Below are positions 27,276 through 32,797 of a stretch of DNA of 59,550 bases, piece after piece. The notes beneath the pieces were generated by a model. It was not told where the DNA came from. It saw nothing but the letters and a program-made list of their open reading frames with translations, and did no database searches. The first letter of the stretch is position 1, and each line of letters opens with the position of its first letter. This stretch comes from Escherichia phage BRET, in sequence record MK165087.1. One strand, written 5' to 3'. A program made the translations under genes and the position numbers.

Positions 27276-28229
27276 TTACTCGTCAAATAAATCCTGGAGA
27301 CGTTCGTTGAACTTCCCATTGTGGTTAGCAAGAATCATAGCGTTGACCACACCATACGCCCACAAATTGTATGCAGCGCGTGATTCATATATTGTTGAAA
27401 GACGTTCGTATGTAAAACCTGACTCCTCTAAGTAGCGTAGAACGTTGTTCTGTTCTATTTCTGAAAGGTTGCAAATATGCTGCCCTTGATAGTGACGTGA
27501 CGGCGATTTTTCGGATACCTGCATTGGGCCCCACTTTGGAGTTTCAATAGCACCAAACGCCGCAGATTGAATCCAGGAGGATGAGTCACAGGAGTACCAC
27601 GGGTAACGCTCCATAAGTGGACGGGACGTAATACCAAATCCGTGAACTTTAATCTTAGCTCGTCCACTACCGTCTACAAGGTGCTTATCCCATACCCTGT
27701 CCAACCATACCTGGAGTTGTTGTGTACTCGCTCCAACAAGACCACCGAGAGTGATATATTCATAATTTCGTACATAATGGTCCAGGTACTCAAAAGGTTC
27801 ACCGGCGTGGAAGCACGGTAAAGGTCTTACGCCTCTGGCTTCCATTTCTTCCTGGTTACGCCACGTTTGAAGTGGATCACCGATACCATCGAGTACGGAC
27901 GCCATGAGTGATCCATCTTCCACACGAATGATATCTATGTTTCGTTTGATGTAATCACAGTATTCTTTAACTGATAACGTAACTCCCAAAGTGTAAGCTG
28001 AGAACGCTCCGGAGTCGAGGAATATCTTGGCCCCATCGGCACGCATGGCATCAACATACGATTGCTTTCCAACGTAGTGCCATGATTCAAGAATGTTTGG
28101 AATATTCTCGACAACACGTTTTTCTTGTTCATTGAGTTTGACATAGCGGTTCATTCCTGGTTTATAGCTGTTCGTATATACGGCAGCCATATAAATCTGA
28201 AAGGTATAGTCGATATCTTGTCTGTGCAT
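27276..28229 (-). CDS. dpdA: DpdA-like DNA guanine transglycosylase (TGT superfamily)
   Basis: LDSGAFS TGT-type motif, about 317 aa; next to 7-deazaguanine synthesis genes. Confidence 0.7.
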   Translation of the reverse strand: MHRQDIDYTFQIYMAAVYTNSYKPGMNRYVKLNEQEKRVVENIPNILESWHYVGKQSYVDAMRADGAKIFLDSGAFSAYTLGVTLSVKEYCDYIKRNIDIIRVEDGSLMASVLDGIGDPLQTWRNQEEMEARGVRPLPCFHAGEPFEYLDHYVRNYEYITLGGLVGASTQQLQVWLDRVWDKHLVDGSGRAKIKVHGFGITSRPLMERYPWYSCDSSSWIQSAAFGAIETPKWGPMQVSEKSPSRHYQGQHICNLSEIEQNNVLRYLEESGFTYERLSTIYESRAAYNLWAYGVVNAMILANHNGKFNERLQDLFDE

Positions 28230-28298: not shown

Positions 28299-28898
28299 TT
28301 ACTTTTTACACGCTTCAAGAAATTCTCGACGCCATGTGTCACCGTGCATGGTGTGATGATAGCCATTGTTTATATCGGTTGCCCCACGGAACGCTTTAGT
28401 AATGGTTGAGCTCCCGCACACCTGCTTAACGCCGCGCGACTCCATACACATATGCTTGGCGTCAATATAAACACACACAGCTTTCGGGTCCAAGTGCTCT
28501 ACGATGGCATCTGCAATTTGGTTAGTCAGACGCTCTTGGACTTGCAAGCGACGGCTAAAAGCATCTACGACGCGAGACAGTTTAGAAAGCCCAACAATTT
28601 TCCCATTTGGTACATATCCCACAACAGCACGACCGATAATGGGAGCCATATGATGCTCACAATGGCTATAAACTGGAATATCGCGGACGATGACCATTTC
28701 ATTACAGTTTTCCCCACCATCTTCAAAAGTCTTAAACAGGGATGCGATATCTACATCGTAACCGCCGAACCATGTCTCAAATGCTTTAGCGACACGTTCA
28801 GGTGTTTCCTGTAGTCCACCACGCAAAGTCGGCGACGCATGGTCTTCAATATTAAACAACAGAGAAGTGACGGCGTCTTTTACAGCTTGTTTATTCAT
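28299..28898 (-). CDS. folE: GTP cyclohydrolase I
   Basis: CEHH motif and T-fold pattern (PVYSHCEHHMAPIIG). Confidence 0.85.
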   Translation of the reverse strand: MNKQAVKDAVTSLLFNIEDHASPTLRGGLQETPERVAKAFETWFGGYDVDIASLFKTFEDGGENCNEMVIVRDIPVYSHCEHHMAPIIGRAVVGYVPNGKIVGLSKLSRVVDAFSRRLQVQERLTNQIADAIVEHLDPKAVCVYIDAKHMCMESRGVKQVCGSSTITKAFRGATDINNGYHHTMHGDTWRREFLEACKK

Positions 28899-28924
28899 GG
28901 TTTACAGTTTCCTTGTGTGGTCAA

Positions 28925-29434
28925 TTATTTGCAATAGTTAACATGGCATTTGGACGTTTCTTCAATGGTACATTCTACCAGTTCAACACCATACTCGTCA
29001 AGAAGTTGTGGGCCAATTACGTCAACCATATATGCAGCTAAGTTTTCCGCAGTAGGGTTGAACGGTAAAGATACCAGCGAGTTGTCAAAGTCCCTTACAT
29101 CGTGACCAGTAGTTTCGTCACAAAGTTCACAATCAACCTGAAGAGCTTTGATCAAAGGATCTTCTTCCCAATGCAGGAACTTATGATCCCAGTTATCTTC
29201 CAACCATTGGCAGAGTGTAGTTTTAACCACACTGAAGTCAATCACGCGCCCAACGCTGTCCAGACCGTCCTCAACCAGCTTTCCTCGCGTCACTACTTTT
29301 CCGCATCCATGTTTCGGCGCAACTTTAAAATGAAACTTATAGTTGTGACCATGCAGGTGGCGACATTTACTTTCATGCCCTACGACACGATGCCCAGCGC
29401 AAATTTCATGTGAACGAATTACTGTATAGCTCAT
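28925..29434 (-). CDS. queD: 6-carboxy-5,6,7,8-tetrahydropterin synthase
   Basis: CxxHRxxGHESKCRHLHGHNYK zinc-binding signature. Confidence 0.8.
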   Translation of the reverse strand: MSYTVIRSHEICAGHRVVGHESKCRHLHGHNYKFHFKVAPKHGCGKVVTRGKLVEDGLDSVGRVIDFSVVKTTLCQWLEDNWDHKFLHWEEDPLIKALQVDCELCDETTGHDVRDFDNSLVSLPFNPTAENLAAYMVDVIGPQLLDEYGVELVECTIEETSKCHVNYCK

Positions 29435-29763
29435 TAGAATTTCTCCGCGTGTTTTTCGTATGTGTTATTGATCACAGTGAGAAAGGACTGGTCCCACTCG
29501 CTCCACAGGACTTTGCCCATACTTACTGCTTCAATGTGAAAAGTATTTGTGGCATCATCTTGAAATAATTTAATGGTGACGTCTGATCCATTCTGGATAT
29601 ATCCCATCAACGCACGTATCTTATCACCTACATCAATGTGTGGATTAAACTGAGGAACTGCTTCTTCAACCGCATCAATTAAATCATAAGCCTGTTGCGG
29701 AATCGGATTACCGAAGCATTTGTGGGCTATACCAGTCTTTGCCGAATTGCTCAATTTATTCAT
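29434..29763 (-). CDS. hypothetical protein embedded in the deazaguanine cluster
   Basis: 109-aa ORF translationally coupled between queD and gat-queC. Confidence 0.5.
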   Translation of the reverse strand: MNKLSNSAKTGIAHKCFGNPIPQQAYDLIDAVEEAVPQFNPHIDVGDKIRALMGYIQNGSDVTIKLFQDDATNTFHIEAVSMGKVLWSEWDQSFLTVINNTYEKHAEKF

Positions 29764-31179
29764 TTACGCCTCGTTTTCGTATTTAATAACTTCTTGTGCG
29801 TTATTAATATTAAACGCAGTCCGGCGCATCATGCAAGGTCCGCAAGTACCGCAATGCAAATCCCCGTTACGGTAACAGCTCCAGGTGTGCTCCAACGGGG
29901 CCCCTAAACGCAGACCTGTAGCGACAATTTCGTGCTTCATTAAGTTACCTACTGGCATGAGCACTTCAACGCGCTTACCGTCCCCTACAGCGAACGGTAA
30001 CACCTGATTAAAGCGGTTAATAAACTCAGGTTCGTTGTCCGGATAGGCTCCAGCTTCTTCTAGGTTGTTACCAAGAACAATATAGTCGAAACCGTTAGCT
30101 TCTGCGTATGCAGTAGCAACAGAAAGCATCACAAGGTTACGAGCTGGAACCCATTCATGCGCGAACTCAGCGCCTTCTTCACCGCCCGCAATTGCAGCAT
30201 CTTGGTCAAATAACGGGCTATCTTTTTTATCGTAAATTGGGATTGGGAATTCAACTAACGGAACTTCCATCACTTCCGCAATTTTACGAATAGCCTTCAA
30301 CTCGTTAGTTTCTGCACGACAACCATACTGGAAGTTAATTAAAGTGACATCTAACCCATTGGACTTACACATCTGAGCTGCTACTGTGCTGTCCATACCA
30401 CCACTGGCGACAACTAACGCGCGTTGAGTCTGCTTATTTGGAATAAGATCAACTTCATTGCATACATCGGTCGATGTGACCACATTGCAGGTGTAAGGCT
30501 TCAGCATTTGTTTAATAGCACGGGATGGTAGCATATCTTCCTGGCTGGCGAAATACATACCAGTATCAGTCTTACCAATCCAGATTGGACGATAATTACA
30601 TGCTGTAAACACACATCCTGGAAAGGAATCATGTGTTGCAAGGATTGCGAAGCTACCTTTCAATTTGCGAATAACTTCATGAAACACACTGTACAGGTAA
30701 TTAAAGTCAGACAAACACATTTCATCTGCTGAAAGTGTACATTCTGCTAACTGTTCAACGATCGCAGCACTATCAATCTTAGTCTGTAGGGCATAGGTAC
30801 GAAGGTCTTTATCGTTCGCAATAGTACCGTTATGAACAATAGTCCAACCATCCATATGATACGGTTGCTGGTCCCACTCATTCTTGTCAACGACCCACTC
30901 TGTAGTCGGTTCAGCGCGAGCGTTACCAATCATTGTGAAGCTACCAATAGCTCCAGCATGAGATACAATGCGCCCAACTTTAACAAGACGTTCCAGCGAT
31001 GTTTTCTTACCGACACTAACAATACGTTGCGGGTGCATACTGTGGTCACCATGCGTAAAGCGTACACCAAGACCATCACGACCACGGTTGATACTAGCTT
31101 TAATAAGATCCTCAATGTCGTTACGGATAATAAGACTTTCAGGTTGACCGTTAGTAATAACACCAAAGATAGAGCACAT
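29764..31179 (-). CDS. queC: Gat-QueC (class II glutamine amidotransferase fused to QueC)
   Basis: N-terminal MCSIFGV (Ntn Cys), SGGMDS PP-loop, C-terminal CxxxC..CxxC zinc motif; AGGAAGG RBS before internal ATG (track ORF extends to 31278). Confidence 0.8.
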   Translation of the reverse strand: MCSIFGVITNGQPESLIIRNDIEDLIKASINRGRDGLGVRFTHGDHSMHPQRIVSVGKKTSLERLVKVGRIVSHAGAIGSFTMIGNARAEPTTEWVVDKNEWDQQPYHMDGWTIVHNGTIANDKDLRTYALQTKIDSAAIVEQLAECTLSADEMCLSDFNYLYSVFHEVIRKLKGSFAILATHDSFPGCVFTACNYRPIWIGKTDTGMYFASQEDMLPSRAIKQMLKPYTCNVVTSTDVCNEVDLIPNKQTQRALVVASGGMDSTVAAQMCKSNGLDVTLINFQYGCRAETNELKAIRKIAEVMEVPLVEFPIPIYDKKDSPLFDQDAAIAGGEEGAEFAHEWVPARNLVMLSVATAYAEANGFDYIVLGNNLEEAGAYPDNEPEFINRFNQVLPFAVGDGKRVEVLMPVGNLMKHEIVATGLRLGAPLEHTWSCYRNGDLHCGTCGPCMMRRTAFNINNAQEVIKYENEA

Positions 31180-31180
31180 A

Positions 31181-31930
31181 TTATTTACCTTCCTTAACCA
31201 TTTCAATTTCACGCTCAACGGATGCAATAATGTCGTTGAGGTCTTCCAGTAAGTCCTTATGACCGCGCTCACCCGCACACAGCAATTTCTTCAGTGCATG
31301 TTGCATGGGCCCACTGGTTACATTGAATGCTTTAATTACGTCGTACACGTCAACCCATACATCAATTTCGATTGGGCTACCATTAATGTCATGAGATTCA
31401 AAAGTTTTAATTTTGCGCATATATTTATTCGGACGTGGAGCTTTAATCTCCTGGATACAACCCTTATTAATAAATGCTTCATTAACGAATAGTTCCGGCT
31501 CACCTTCTTTGTTACGATCAACGTTAAAGACATTCGTAAGTAGATCGTCCATGATACCAGCTAATTTTTCGGAAGAAGTTTTATGATTTTTAACCATCTC
31601 TTCCGCTTTCTGTGTTCCGCTAACAGAAGCACTAATGCGCCATTTGTAAAGCGCATTACGCGGAGGCGTTACATGCGTGTTGTAGACTGTCTTTAAGCTC
31701 ATAAGATCACTTCCATCCATACCTTCAACAAAGACAGTGAGTTCGGGACTAATATCGTTCAGAACATCTACTAAATATCCTTCTCGAATTACAGATGCAA
31801 GAGCTGTATTGGACGCCGCCTGGGAAACTGTGGTCACATAATGTTTTACAAATCCGTCTTCATCAAACAGACACTGGTTTAACACATCTTGTGGAACAAT
31901 TTGACCGAGTAATTGAATATGCTTATTCAT
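31181..31930 (-). CDS. hypothetical protein embedded in the deazaguanine cluster
   Basis: 249-aa ORF between queE and gat-queC, stop 1 nt from the gat-queC start. Confidence 0.5.
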   Translation of the reverse strand: MNKHIQLLGQIVPQDVLNQCLFDEDGFVKHYVTTVSQAASNTALASVIREGYLVDVLNDISPELTVFVEGMDGSDLMSLKTVYNTHVTPPRNALYKWRISASVSGTQKAEEMVKNHKTSSEKLAGIMDDLLTNVFNVDRNKEGEPELFVNEAFINKGCIQEIKAPRPNKYMRKIKTFESHDINGSPIEIDVWVDVYDVIKAFNVTSGPMQHALKKLLCAGERGHKDLLEDLNDIIASVEREIEMVKEGK

Positions 31931-31964: not shown

Positions 31965-32729
31965 TTACTCTACACCTAAATATTTGTGAATCTGCAACTG
32001 CACGATGTAATTATGCTTCATTGCGTATTTAACAACAGCTTGAGCGTTTGCTTTGTTAGCAACGTCATCCTGTTCATCCATAGGTTGAAGATAGATATCA
32101 CCTTTAAAGTGTACCGGAGGACGTGCGATAAATGGTGTTGCACGGTGATCCAGTGCCTGCAACGGTAATCCATCTTCCTCGTTGACGTTTCCGCTTTTCA
32201 TTACATATTTGAAAGCGTCTGCTCTGGCGGAAACACTAGGATGAATCTTTGCTGCCTTAGGACTACATACTACCACACAACTATAGTTGAGTTCACGCGG
32301 GATAGGCATAGTTCCGTTAGTTTCAACCTGTACACGGTATCCTTTCATATCAATAAGATAGTTGATAAAATTAACAACTTCAGGTTGACGGAAAGGTTCG
32401 CCACCAGTAATAACAACTAATTCAGTCTTAGCTTCACCAGTAACACGGACAATCTCTTTCCAGATATCGGTATGACTCATCTTCTTACGATTGGACGTAT
32501 AGTTTGTATCACATCCTGGGCATTGCAGATTACAACCAGCTAAACGAACGAACACGGCAGGTTGACCACAAAACGGGCCTTCACCTTGAATGGTATGAAA
32601 AATGGAATGTACGTCAAGAATACCACGTTCACGAACTAACTTCTCAGGATCCTGAGTATTAATAATTTTCATATGATTTCCAAATTTGGCTTGAGCCCAG
32701 TGGTGGGCGATAATGGCTTGTGCAAACAT
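31965..32729 (-). CDS. queE: 7-carboxy-7-deazaguanine synthase (radical SAM)
   Basis: CNLQCPGCDT CxxxCxxC cluster, IQGEGPFCGQ; start likely the internal ATG with GAGG RBS. Confidence 0.8.
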   Translation of the reverse strand: MFAQAIIAHHWAQAKFGNHMKIINTQDPEKLVRERGILDVHSIFHTIQGEGPFCGQPAVFVRLAGCNLQCPGCDTNYTSNRKKMSHTDIWKEIVRVTGEAKTELVVITGGEPFRQPEVVNFINYLIDMKGYRVQVETNGTMPIPRELNYSCVVVCSPKAAKIHPSVSARADAFKYVMKSGNVNEEDGLPLQALDHRATPFIARPPVHFKGDIYLQPMDEQDDVANKANAQAVVKYAMKHNYIVQLQIHKYLGVE

Positions 32730-32797
32730 TTGAACCTCGGGGTAAGATAACAAAGGGGCAGTAAATGCCCCTTCTGAGTTTCCGAAGTGTCTACAGA

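What the first reader, a model, noticed from the sequence alone, without database searches (positions are those of the whole stretch)
29434..29763. Uncharacterised 109-aa ORF translationally coupled between queD and gat-queC
A gene of no recognisable family sits inside the modification operon with start/stop coupling to both neighbours, so it is probably co-expressed. It could be an accessory factor (substrate channelling, a further base-tailoring step, or regulation) rather than a passenger.
Basis: inference. Interest (0 to 1): 0.55.

Follow-up and report, generated by a model that had tools for sequence, protein, structure and literature searches.

The report
Swappable small gene inside deazaguanine operon
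The 109-codon gene is real and almost certainly expressed with the DNA-modification operon, but it is an optional, shuffled two-module cassette that most sister phages lack, so it is a hitch-hiking accessory gene rather than part of the archaeosine (dG+) pathway.

Summary
A 109-aa ORF lies at 29434-29763 (- strand). It abuts the gat-queC stop (TAAATG) and overlaps the queD start by one base (TAATG), and each start has a Shine-Dalgarno motif. It is a real gene: dN/dS is about 0.11 and the AlphaFold2 model has pLDDT 88.8.

The window is a 9g-like Nonagvirus. Of 12 GenBank Nonagvirus isolates, 9, including phage 9g, have nothing between gat-queC and queD. One has a 107-aa gene with the same N-terminal 44 aa but a different C-terminal half. 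Two carry three unrelated small ORFs. Published work shows that 9g dpdA plus gat-queC alone install dG+.

The protein is two independent modules:
- N (aa 1-44) is a helical hairpin.
- C (aa 45-109) is an acidic alpha-beta3-alpha, dsRBD-like fold with a GYxxNGS...FQDDAT motif and no RNA-binding residues.

These two modules and two others (A, X) recombine in a fixed order among small phage proteins. The C module also occurs in phage 9NA, which has no deazaguanine genes.

My verdict is an accessory cassette in a recombination hot spot, riding the operon's expression. It most likely acts by binding proteins, but its target is unknown. Interest is modest.

The parts
29434..29763 (-). ORF109: 109-aa CDS including its stop. 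Acidic (pI 5.2) and built of two modules.
   Evidence: dN/dS about 0.11; AF2 pLDDT 88.8
29632..29763 (-). N module (aa 1-44): a helical hairpin (H6-17, H23-39) with motif GIAHKxFGNPIPQQAYDLI. It is about 70-75% identical at protein level to the first 45 aa of the 107-aa gene upstream of queD in PD328, CAjan and Skure. The PD328 match is 88% identical at nucleotide level.
29437..29631 (-). C module (aa 45-109): an alpha-beta-beta-beta-alpha, dsRBD-like fold with motif LMGYIQNGS..TIKLFQDDAT. In other phage proteins it is almost always C-terminal or stands alone.
29761..29772 (-). Upstream coupling junction GAGGCGTAAATG. It holds the Shine-Dalgarno GAGG, the gat-queC stop TAA and the ORF109 ATG with no spacer between stop and start.
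   Evidence: the same junction is present in PD328, L010 and L013
29432..29446 (-). Downstream coupling junction GGAGAAATTCTAATG. The Shine-Dalgarno for queD lies inside the last codons of ORF109 (..AEKF), and the ORF109 stop overlaps the queD ATG by 1 nt. Homology to sister phages resumes here, so this is the 3' boundary of the swapped cassette.
   Evidence: the C-module-to-queD junction, also at the queD start, is found in Ec1-ASingh
29764..31179 (-). gat-queC (471 aa from ATG 31179). The upstream neighbour, 90-98% nt identical across Nonagvirus.
28925..29434 (-). queD (169 aa). The downstream neighbour, a mosaic allele only 76-88% nt identical to the GenBank Nonagvirus isolates (up to 95% in one metagenomic contig) and 91% nt / 98% aa identical to a Seuratvirus-like contig.

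Best explanation
ORF109 is a genuine, co-expressed but dispensable accessory gene lodged in a permissive, recombination-prone slot between gat-queC and queD of a 9g-like Nonagvirus. It borrows the operon's transcription. Its translation is coupled to gat-queC, and it carries the ribosome-binding site for queD in its own last codons.

The protein is a string of two autonomous modules. The N-terminal helical hairpin (N) is shared with the 107-aa gene that occupies the same slot in some Seuratvirus and Nonagvirus phages. The C-terminal acidic alpha-beta3-alpha module (C) replaces that gene's helical A module, and the swap runs exactly from codon ~44 to the queD start. N, A, C and a fourth module X are shuffled in a fixed X-N-A-C order among small early or replication-region proteins of many phages.

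Inferred mechanism (not shown): the C module is a type-B (non-RNA-binding) dsRBD-like domain for protein-protein interaction or self-association. It presents the N hairpin as a small acidic binding protein directed at a host or phage DNA-metabolism or defence protein. The protein does not take part in making or inserting dG+.
For: Shown:
- Gene reality and coupling are established.
- The slot is polymorphic among 12 GenBank Nonagvirus isolates. It is empty in 9g, JenP1, JenP2, JenK1, SE1, HdK1, HdSG1, ESCO3 and SP8. PD328 has N+A. FritzHoffmann and ChristophMerian have three other ORFs, one of them X+A.
- The N+C allele recurs at 92% identity in the same slot in metagenomic about-60-kb contigs, where it is linked to different queD alleles (79-95% nt).
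- DNA homology with the N+A gene stops at codon ~44 and resumes at the queD ATG.
- Module combinations observed: N+A, N+C, X+A, X+C (Ec1-ASingh, same slot), A+C (P0013, same slot in a Seuratvirus-like cluster), X+N+C (K4PH164, between a DprA-like gene and primase), N+C between ligase and YAcAr (L095), C alone (9NA gp79; an N4-like early region), ParB-HTH+C and X+DUF551+C.
- The C module is C-terminal in 80 of 83 proteins and the whole protein (<=95 aa) in 32.
- AF2 models show independent modules. N+C has pLDDT 88.8. N+A has pLDDT 87 and pTM 0.49 with a flexible linker.
- The module is acidic: pI 5.1 here and median 5.07 across the family.
- 9NA carries the C module but no deazaguanine genes.
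- 9g dpdA plus gat-queC suffice for dG+ (PMC6884629).

Inferred: self-association, because in ParB-type fusions the C module sits where ParB proteins carry their C-terminal dimerisation domain.
Against: - No partner or activity has been identified, so the protein-binding role rests on fold class, charge and architecture only.
- Modules N, A and C turn up repeatedly in the slot just upstream of queD in several Queuovirinae lineages. This could mean a functional tie to the pathway rather than shared ancestry plus recombination.
- A stand-alone 65-aa C module is hard to explain as a mere dimerisation domain.
- The near-invariant QDDAT and NGS loops could mark a specific binding or catalytic site that I cannot interpret.
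- Dispensability for dG+ is shown for 9g, not for this phage.
Confidence: 0.6

Rival explanations
1. Pathway accessory factor. ORF109 channels intermediates between Gat-QueC, QueD and DpdA, adds a tailoring step, or regulates the pathway.
For: - It sits inside the operon with translational coupling on both sides.
- Genes built from the same modules recur directly upstream of queD in Seuratvirus, Nonagvirus and related clusters: N+A, A+C and X+C.
- Hutinet et al. inferred that preQ0 made by Gat-QueC is channelled to DpdA (PMC6884629), so a scaffold is conceivable.
Against: - It is absent from 9 of 12 Nonagvirus isolates, including 9g, which modifies up to 27% of its dG.
- dpdA plus gat-queC alone give 18 +/- 10% dG+.
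- The same slot can hold unrelated ORFs.
- N+C or X+N+C genes sit in replication modules far from the que genes in K4PH164, EC151 and L095.
- The C module is present in 9NA, which has no que or dpdA genes.
- There is no T-fold, PP-loop, radical-SAM or TGT-like feature.
Confidence: 0.1
2. Nucleic-acid-binding regulator. The dsRBD-like (or Hfq-like) C module binds structured RNA or DNA, for example to tune translation of the operon or to mark modified DNA.
For: - The fold is alpha-beta3-alpha, with many dsRBD hits.
- There are weak Hfq-related hits: Pfam E 0.15 and NCBIfam E 0.13.
- Fusion to ParB HTH proteins and its neighbourhood of primase, ligase, DprA-like and methyltransferase genes place it in a DNA-metabolism context.
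Against: - There is no Pfam dsrm hit.
- The canonical RNA-contact motifs are absent. The beta1-beta2 loop is QDDAT instead of GPxH, and the start of helix 2 is SF(L/E)xxI instead of KKxAK.
- The module is acidic across the family, with median pI 5.07.
- The Hfq hits are far below threshold, and the model is not an Sm barrel.
Confidence: 0.1
3. T7 Gp1.2-like inhibitor of a host nucleotide-depleting enzyme (the dGTPase Dgt). This would protect the guanine nucleotide pool that both replication and the GTP-consuming preQ0 pathway need.
Against: - There is no sequence relationship: hhalign probability is 0.3% and identity is 9-10%.
- The hit reflects a common small fold.
- Nothing links the family to dgt.
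Confidence: 0.05
4. Decaying remnant or purely selfish filler with no function for the phage.
For: It shows presence/absence polymorphism and sits at a recombination breakpoint. It is rare: the C module is found in only 27 of 50,697 phage records.
Against: - Purifying selection is strong in both modules, with dN/dS about 0.11.
- The reading frame is intact with optimised coupling signals.
- The fold is confidently predicted.
- The family motif is conserved across phages of Klebsiella, Rhizobium, Burkholderia and Pseudomonas.
Confidence: 0.05

Closest known systems
107-aa hypothetical protein upstream of queD in Escherichia phage CAjan (AJT60524.1), Skure and vB_EcoM_PD328 (UVK80476.1). Its C-terminal half is phrog_24659.
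   Same: It occupies the same slot immediately upstream of queD and has the same TAAATG junction with gat-queC in PD328. Its first 45 aa are about 69-76% identical to ORF109 (the N module), and the predicted N hairpin is the same.
   Different: Residues 46-107 form an unrelated helical hairpin (the A module) instead of the alpha-beta3-alpha C module. No DNA or protein similarity remains after codon ~44. Its function is also unknown.
K4PH164_LOCUS57 (194 aa, Klebsiella phage vB_Ko_K4PH164) and its counterparts in Enterobacter phage EC151 (QSL98934.1) and IMG/VR contigs L045 and L052
   Same: In K4PH164 the N and C modules appear in the same order and are 40% identical to the whole of ORF109. 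All of these phages are Queuovirinae or related to them.
   Different: These proteins carry an extra N-terminal X module (phrog_7810). EC151's protein lacks N. They sit between a DprA-like gene and the primase, not in the deazaguanine operon.
Type-B (non-RNA-binding) dsRBDs such as Loquacious dsRBD3, Staufen dsRBD5 and TRBP/PACT domain 3
   Different: There is no detectable sequence homology. The phage family has its own GYxxNGS/FQDDAT signature. The interaction role is inferred here, not shown.
T7 Gp1.2, inhibitor of E. coli dGTPase (PDB 7u65_G)
   Different: hhalign probability is 0.3%. No shared motif or genomic parallel exists, so the likeness is at fold level only.
Phage morons and nin-region-type accessory ORFs
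   Same: ORF109 is a small optional gene, present or absent among near-identical genomes. It sits at a junction between conserved genes and is built from shuffled modules, one partner being DUF551, a domain of unknown function (PF04448).
   Different: Classical morons bring their own promoter and terminator. This cassette has none and instead splices into the operon's translational coupling. Its GC content differs only slightly from that of its neighbours (40.6% against 44%).

Membership tests
7-deazaguanine (dG+/dPreQ0) DNA-modification pathway component | Co-occurs with dpdA/queCDE clusters in related phages | tested here: not met
   The full ORF is in 0 of 12 GenBank Nonagvirus isolates, and the slot is empty in 9. 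The C module is present in 9NA, which has no DpdA, FolE, QueD, QueC or QueE hit.
7-deazaguanine (dG+/dPreQ0) DNA-modification pathway component | Fold or sequence of a known pathway enzyme class (T-fold, PP-loop ATPase, radical SAM, TGT barrel, amidotransferase) | tested here: not met
7-deazaguanine (dG+/dPreQ0) DNA-modification pathway component | Required for the modification | not testable with these tools
   Indirect evidence only. 9g lacks the gene yet up to 27% of its dG is reported replaced by dG+, and 9g dpdA plus gat-queC suffice in E. coli (PMC6884629). A deletion in this phage is needed.
dsRBD (double-stranded RNA-binding domain, Pfam dsrm) | alpha1-beta1-beta2-beta3-alpha2 fold | tested here: met
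dsRBD (double-stranded RNA-binding domain, Pfam dsrm) | Sequence-profile match and the RNA-contact motifs (GPxH in loop 2, KKxAK at the start of helix 2, basic surface) | tested here: not met
   No dsrm hit at E<=1. Loop 2 is QDDAT and helix 2 starts SFxxxI. pI is 5.1.
T7 Gp1.2 dGTPase-inhibitor family | Sequence homology to Gp1.2 | tested here: not met
   hhalign of the C-module profile against T7 Gp1.2 gives probability 0.3% and E 0.23.
T7 Gp1.2 dGTPase-inhibitor family | Binds and inhibits host Dgt | not testable with these tools
Hfq/Sm-like | Profile match above threshold and an Sm beta-barrel | tested here: not met
   Pfam Hfq_1 gives E 0.15 and 12.7 bits against a cut-off of 27. NCBIfam gives 12.5 bits against 52. 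The model has three strands flanked by helices, not an Sm barrel.
Phage accessory (moron-like) gene in a variable slot | Presence/absence or replacement polymorphism among closely related genomes, with conserved flanks | tested here: met
   Four slot states are seen among Nonagvirus, while the flanking gat-queC is 90-98% nt identical. The homology breakpoints are sharp.
Phage accessory (moron-like) gene in a variable slot | Own promoter and terminator (classical moron definition) | tested here: not met
   No promoter- or terminator-like site flanks the ORF on the - strand. It uses stop/start coupling instead.

The most novel reading that the evidence does not exclude
The four shuffled modules (X, N, A, C) form a previously undescribed combinatorial family of small phage effector proteins. 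Their recurrent lodging directly upstream of queD in Queuovirinae would then not be an accident of ancestry. For example, the conserved acidic QDDAT loop of the C module might neutralise a host factor that limits guanine-nucleotide supply or that senses 7-deazaguanine-modified DNA. On this reading the cassette is an anti-defence partner of the modification system, not a biosynthetic component.
Probability: 0.12. Interest if true: 0.6.

Novelty: new member of a known kind. Interest (0 to 1): 0.27.

Why it matters
For annotating deazaguanine clusters, the result is a caution. Position inside the operon and tight translational coupling do not imply a pathway role, and ORF109 should not be counted as a dG+ biosynthesis gene.

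It also shows how a phage operon tolerates cassette exchange. The incoming module ends exactly at the next gene's start and supplies that gene's ribosome-binding site.

Finally, it defines two small domain families with no Pfam match (and, for N and C, no PHROG match) that are shuffled with two others in a fixed order. The C module, with its GYxxNGS/FQDDAT motif, has about 85 clusters at 50% identity. The N hairpin family is smaller. Such families are the usual hunting ground for host-takeover and anti-defence proteins, so they are reasonable low-cost targets for pull-down screens. Nothing here yet points to a new mechanism.

Tried and rejected
- **Family libraries.** Pfam, PHROGs, NCBIfam and PADLOC scans of ORF109 and of its module relatives gave nothing significant. 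The Hfq-related hits were rejected because they are sub-threshold and the fold is wrong.
- **PDB sequence profile.** The best E-value was 0.45.
- **Fold searches.** Foldseek against PDB gave no hit at E<=0.001. BFVD returned only uncharacterised phage proteins, including a 100%-identical UniProt entry, A0A3G8F3J8. The AFDB50 library was unavailable.
- **T7 Gp1.2.** Homology was tested by hhalign and rejected.
- **Apparent large repeat proteins.** Hits P0037, P0065 and P0084 from the exhaustive search are repetitive or low-complexity sequences and were discarded as spurious.
- **Plasmids.** There was no match, so I found no support from plasmid records.
- **Second copies in the window.** There is no second copy of any module, no X module, and no DprA-like or YAcAr partner in the window.
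- **C module next to DNA methyltransferases.** This is seen in 9NA, Carvaje, BU9 and phi_270. I discounted it as a clue because all of these belong to one 9NA-like lineage.
- **ORF caller.** My crude caller missed 13 of 33 IMG/VR C-module loci, so I attempted no statistical neighbourhood enrichment.

Full report
**1. The observation**

The window is a 9g-like phage of the genus Nonagvirus (Queuovirinae). The 6-kb region around the finding is 90-93% identical to Enterobacteria phage 9g, JenP1/P2/K1, SE1, PD328, FritzHoffmann and others.

On the minus strand the operon reads:
- queE (31965-32753)
- a conserved 249-aa ORF of unknown function (31181-31930, phrog_18443)
- gat-queC (29764-31179)
- the 109-aa ORF (29434-29763)
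- queD (28925-29434)
- folE (28299-28898)
- dpdA (27276-28229)

GAGGCGTAAATG places the gat-queC stop directly against the ORF's ATG, with a GAGG Shine-Dalgarno 5 nt upstream. GGAGAAATTCTAATG makes the ORF's stop overlap the queD ATG by one base, with GGAG 8 nt upstream.

No promoter- or terminator-like site lies between these genes on the coding strand, and site counts in the region do not exceed shuffled controls.

The ORF is a real gene:
- Against four metagenomic Nonagvirus contigs that carry a 92%-identical copy, I count about 17 synonymous and 9 non-synonymous differences. That gives dN/dS of about 0.11, similar in both halves.
- AlphaFold2 with a 56-sequence alignment gives mean pLDDT 88.8.

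It has no significant hit in Pfam, PHROGs, NCBIfam or PADLOC, and none by profile against PDB sequences.

**2. The slot is optional and variable**

I examined 12 distinct GenBank Nonagvirus isolates.
- In nine, gat-queC runs straight into queD with a gap of 1-3 nt: 9g, JenP1, JenP2, JenK1, SE1, HdK1, HdSG1, ESCO3 and SP8.
- PD328 has a 107-aa ORF in the slot.
- FritzHoffmann and ChristophMerian have three small ORFs of 82, 134 and 89 aa.
- None has the window's ORF. A tblastn search of 50,697 phage records found only one record covering at least 80% of it, at 40% identity, and that gene lies elsewhere in its genome.

The allele is not unique, however. A 92%-identical copy lies in the same slot in the four metagenomic contigs inspected, of 13 that carry it.

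Other junctions of the operon also gain and lose small ORFs: clamp|dpdA, dpdA|folE and queE|249-aa ORF.

Gene-by-gene nucleotide identity shows that gat-queC, dpdA and queE are 90-98% conserved across Nonagvirus. By contrast, queD (76-95%) and folE (78-89%) are mosaic. The window's QueD is 98% identical in protein to that of a Seuratvirus-like contig, and the three N+C contigs compared carry different queD alleles (79, 84 and 95% nt). ORF109 therefore sits at a recombination breakpoint.

**3. Anatomy: two modules from a shuffled set**

Protein and DNA alignments show the following:
- Residues 1-44 are about 70-75% identical to the first 45 residues of the 107-aa ORF that lies directly upstream of queD in PD328, CAjan, Skure and several IMG/VR contigs. 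I call this the N module; the PD328 match is 88% identical at nucleotide level.
- Similarity stops at the FNP motif (codon ~44) and resumes exactly at the queD ATG.
- The 3' part of the 107-aa gene is a different module, which I call A (phrog_24659).
- In the window it is replaced by residues 45-109, the C module.

An exhaustive HMMER search of 1.84 billion representatives found 89 proteins at E<=1e-3. When the two halves are searched separately against all 96 proteins retrieved, the hits separate cleanly: about 14 genuine proteins carry N and about 83 carry C.

The C module is at the C-terminal end in 80 of 83 proteins, and 32 of them are 95 aa or shorter. Its alignment shows a nearly invariant signature, G-Y-[VI]-[EQ]-N-G-S ... 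[LI]-F-Q-D-D-A-T.

A fourth module, X (phrog_7810, with a DWPEYE motif), joins the set. Observed architectures always follow the order X-N-A-C:

| Architecture | Example | Location |
|---|---|---|
| N+A | CAjan, PD328 | upstream of queD |
| N+C | the window | upstream of queD |
| N+C (57% identical) | L095 | between ligase and a YAcAr gene |
| X+A | FritzHoffmann | upstream of queD |
| X+C | Ec1-ASingh | upstream of queD; its stop also at the queD start |
| A+C | P0013 | upstream of queD in a Seuratvirus-like cluster |
| X+N+C | K4PH164 | between a DprA-like gene and primase |
| X+C | EC151 | between a DprA-like gene and primase |
| X+DUF551+C | L045 | not determined |
| ParB-HTH+C | L057, L065 | not determined |
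| C alone | 9NA gp79 | after a C5-methyltransferase |
| C alone | L084 | N4-like early region |

None of the four modules is in Pfam. There is no plasmid hit. The window has no second copy of any module and no DprA-like or YAcAr gene.

**4. Structure**

- The N module is a helical hairpin (H6-17, H23-39).
- The C module is alpha(45-52), three beta strands (63-69, 74-81, 84-91) and alpha(94-105).
- The N+A relative models as the same hairpin, a lower-confidence linker and a second long helical hairpin. Its pTM of 0.49 suggests loosely connected modules.
- The canonical dsRNA-contact motifs are absent. The module is acidic, with pI 5.1 here and a family median of 5.07.

**5. Bearing on the deazaguanine pathway**

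Hutinet et al. 2019 (PMC6884629) report three relevant results:
- Up to 27% of dG in 9g is replaced by dG+.
- 9g dpdA plus gat-queC expressed in E. coli, using host preQ0 synthesis, put dG+ into 18 +/- 10% of plasmid G.
- The minimal sets are FolE/QueD/QueE/QueC/DpdA for dPreQ0, with Gat-QueC replacing QueC for dG+.

9g has no gene in this slot. Phage 9NA carries a C-module gene but has no homologue of DpdA, FolE, QueD, QueC or QueE anywhere in its genome.

The other, a deletion experiment, cannot be run here.

**6. What it most likely is and does**

Shown:
- It is a selected, co-expressed but optional cassette.
- The exchange was precise: the N module is retained, A is swapped for C, and the boundary falls at the queD start.
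- The modules are autonomous and widely shuffled.
- The C module has a dsRBD-like fold without RNA-binding features.

Inferred: the protein works by protein-protein interaction. The C module is always terminal and is fused to many unrelated heads. In ParB-type fusions it occupies the place of the ParB C-terminal dimerisation domain. It resembles type-B dsRBDs. On this basis I read it as a self-association or partner-binding module, with the N hairpin as a second binding surface.

The usual neighbourhoods are early-gene arrays and replication or recombination genes (primase, ligase, DprA-like, ParB, methyltransferase). These point to a host or phage DNA-metabolism or defence target rather than to base biosynthesis.

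I put about 0.75 on "not a pathway component, an accessory cassette" and about 0.4 on the specific protein-binding reading. My confidence in the combined statement is 0.6.

**7. Caveats**

Genes built from N, A and C recur just upstream of queD in several Queuovirinae lineages. This is striking and not fully explained. Shared ancestry plus homologous recombination through the N module and the queD start is the simplest account, but a functional tie, for example to guanine-nucleotide supply, cannot be excluded.

That is the basis of the novel reading, to which I give a probability of about 0.12. The Gp1.2-like idea is a special case of it and rests on fold resemblance alone.

**8. Novelty and score**

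The sequence is already in UniProt as an uncharacterised protein (100% BFVD match A0A3G8F3J8). It is one more small phage accessory gene in a variable slot, and I class it as a new member of a known kind.

The module network and the unannotated C-module family are useful minor findings. Interest is 0.27.

Noticed in passing
window 31181-31930 (-): The 249-aa ORF between queE and gat-queC (phrog_18443) has no Pfam or NCBIfam hit. It is present in the 12 GenBank Nonagvirus isolates and 7 metagenomic Nonagvirus contigs compared (83-94% nt). Its C-terminal ~80 aa are also conserved next to queC/yhhQ in Seuratvirus (CAjan AJT60525). It is a much better candidate than ORF109 for a conserved pathway-linked factor.
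   Followed up: partly
window 29764-31278 (-): the ORF listing extends gat-queC to a GTG at 31278 (504 aa), which overlaps the upstream gene. Relatives and the PHROG profile start at ATG 31179 (MCSIFGV..., 471 aa), 1 nt after the upstream stop. This places Cys2 as the N-terminal nucleophile expected for a class-II amidotransferase.
   Followed up: partly
window 28299-29434 (-) (folE, queD): queD and folE are mosaic: 76-95% and 78-89% nt identical to other Nonagvirus, against 90-98% for dpdA, gat-queC and queE. The window's QueD is 98% aa identical to that of a Seuratvirus-like IMG/VR contig (L009). This implies exchange between genera, with a breakpoint at the ORF109/queD junction.
   Followed up: partly
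related loci L002, L003, L090, L091, L093: Other gene junctions of the same operon also gain and lose small ORFs. A 179-aa ORF sits between clamp and dpdA in ESCO3. ORFs of about 162-164 aa sit between dpdA and folE in FritzHoffmann and SP8. ORFs of 33 and 83 aa sit between queE and the 249-aa ORF in PD328, FritzHoffmann and ChristophMerian.
   Followed up: no
L004 3174-4339; L101 4156-5198; L095 5001-5752: In three Queuovirinae-type phages the C-module protein overlaps or abuts a DprA-like/YAcAr (SLOG-type) gene, in two different gene orders. This may be a functional pairing. The window has neither gene.
   Followed up: partly
L057 3248-4183; L065 3203-4183: In these ParB-type proteins (HTH_ParB, E 3e-6) the C-terminal segment is the C module. 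It sits where canonical ParB proteins have their dimerisation domain.
   Followed up: partly
L084 1-334 (-): An Acb2/Tad1-hairpin 'Sequestin' anti-defence sponge gene lies about 3.7 kb from a stand-alone C-module gene, in the early region of an N4-like contig.
   Followed up: no
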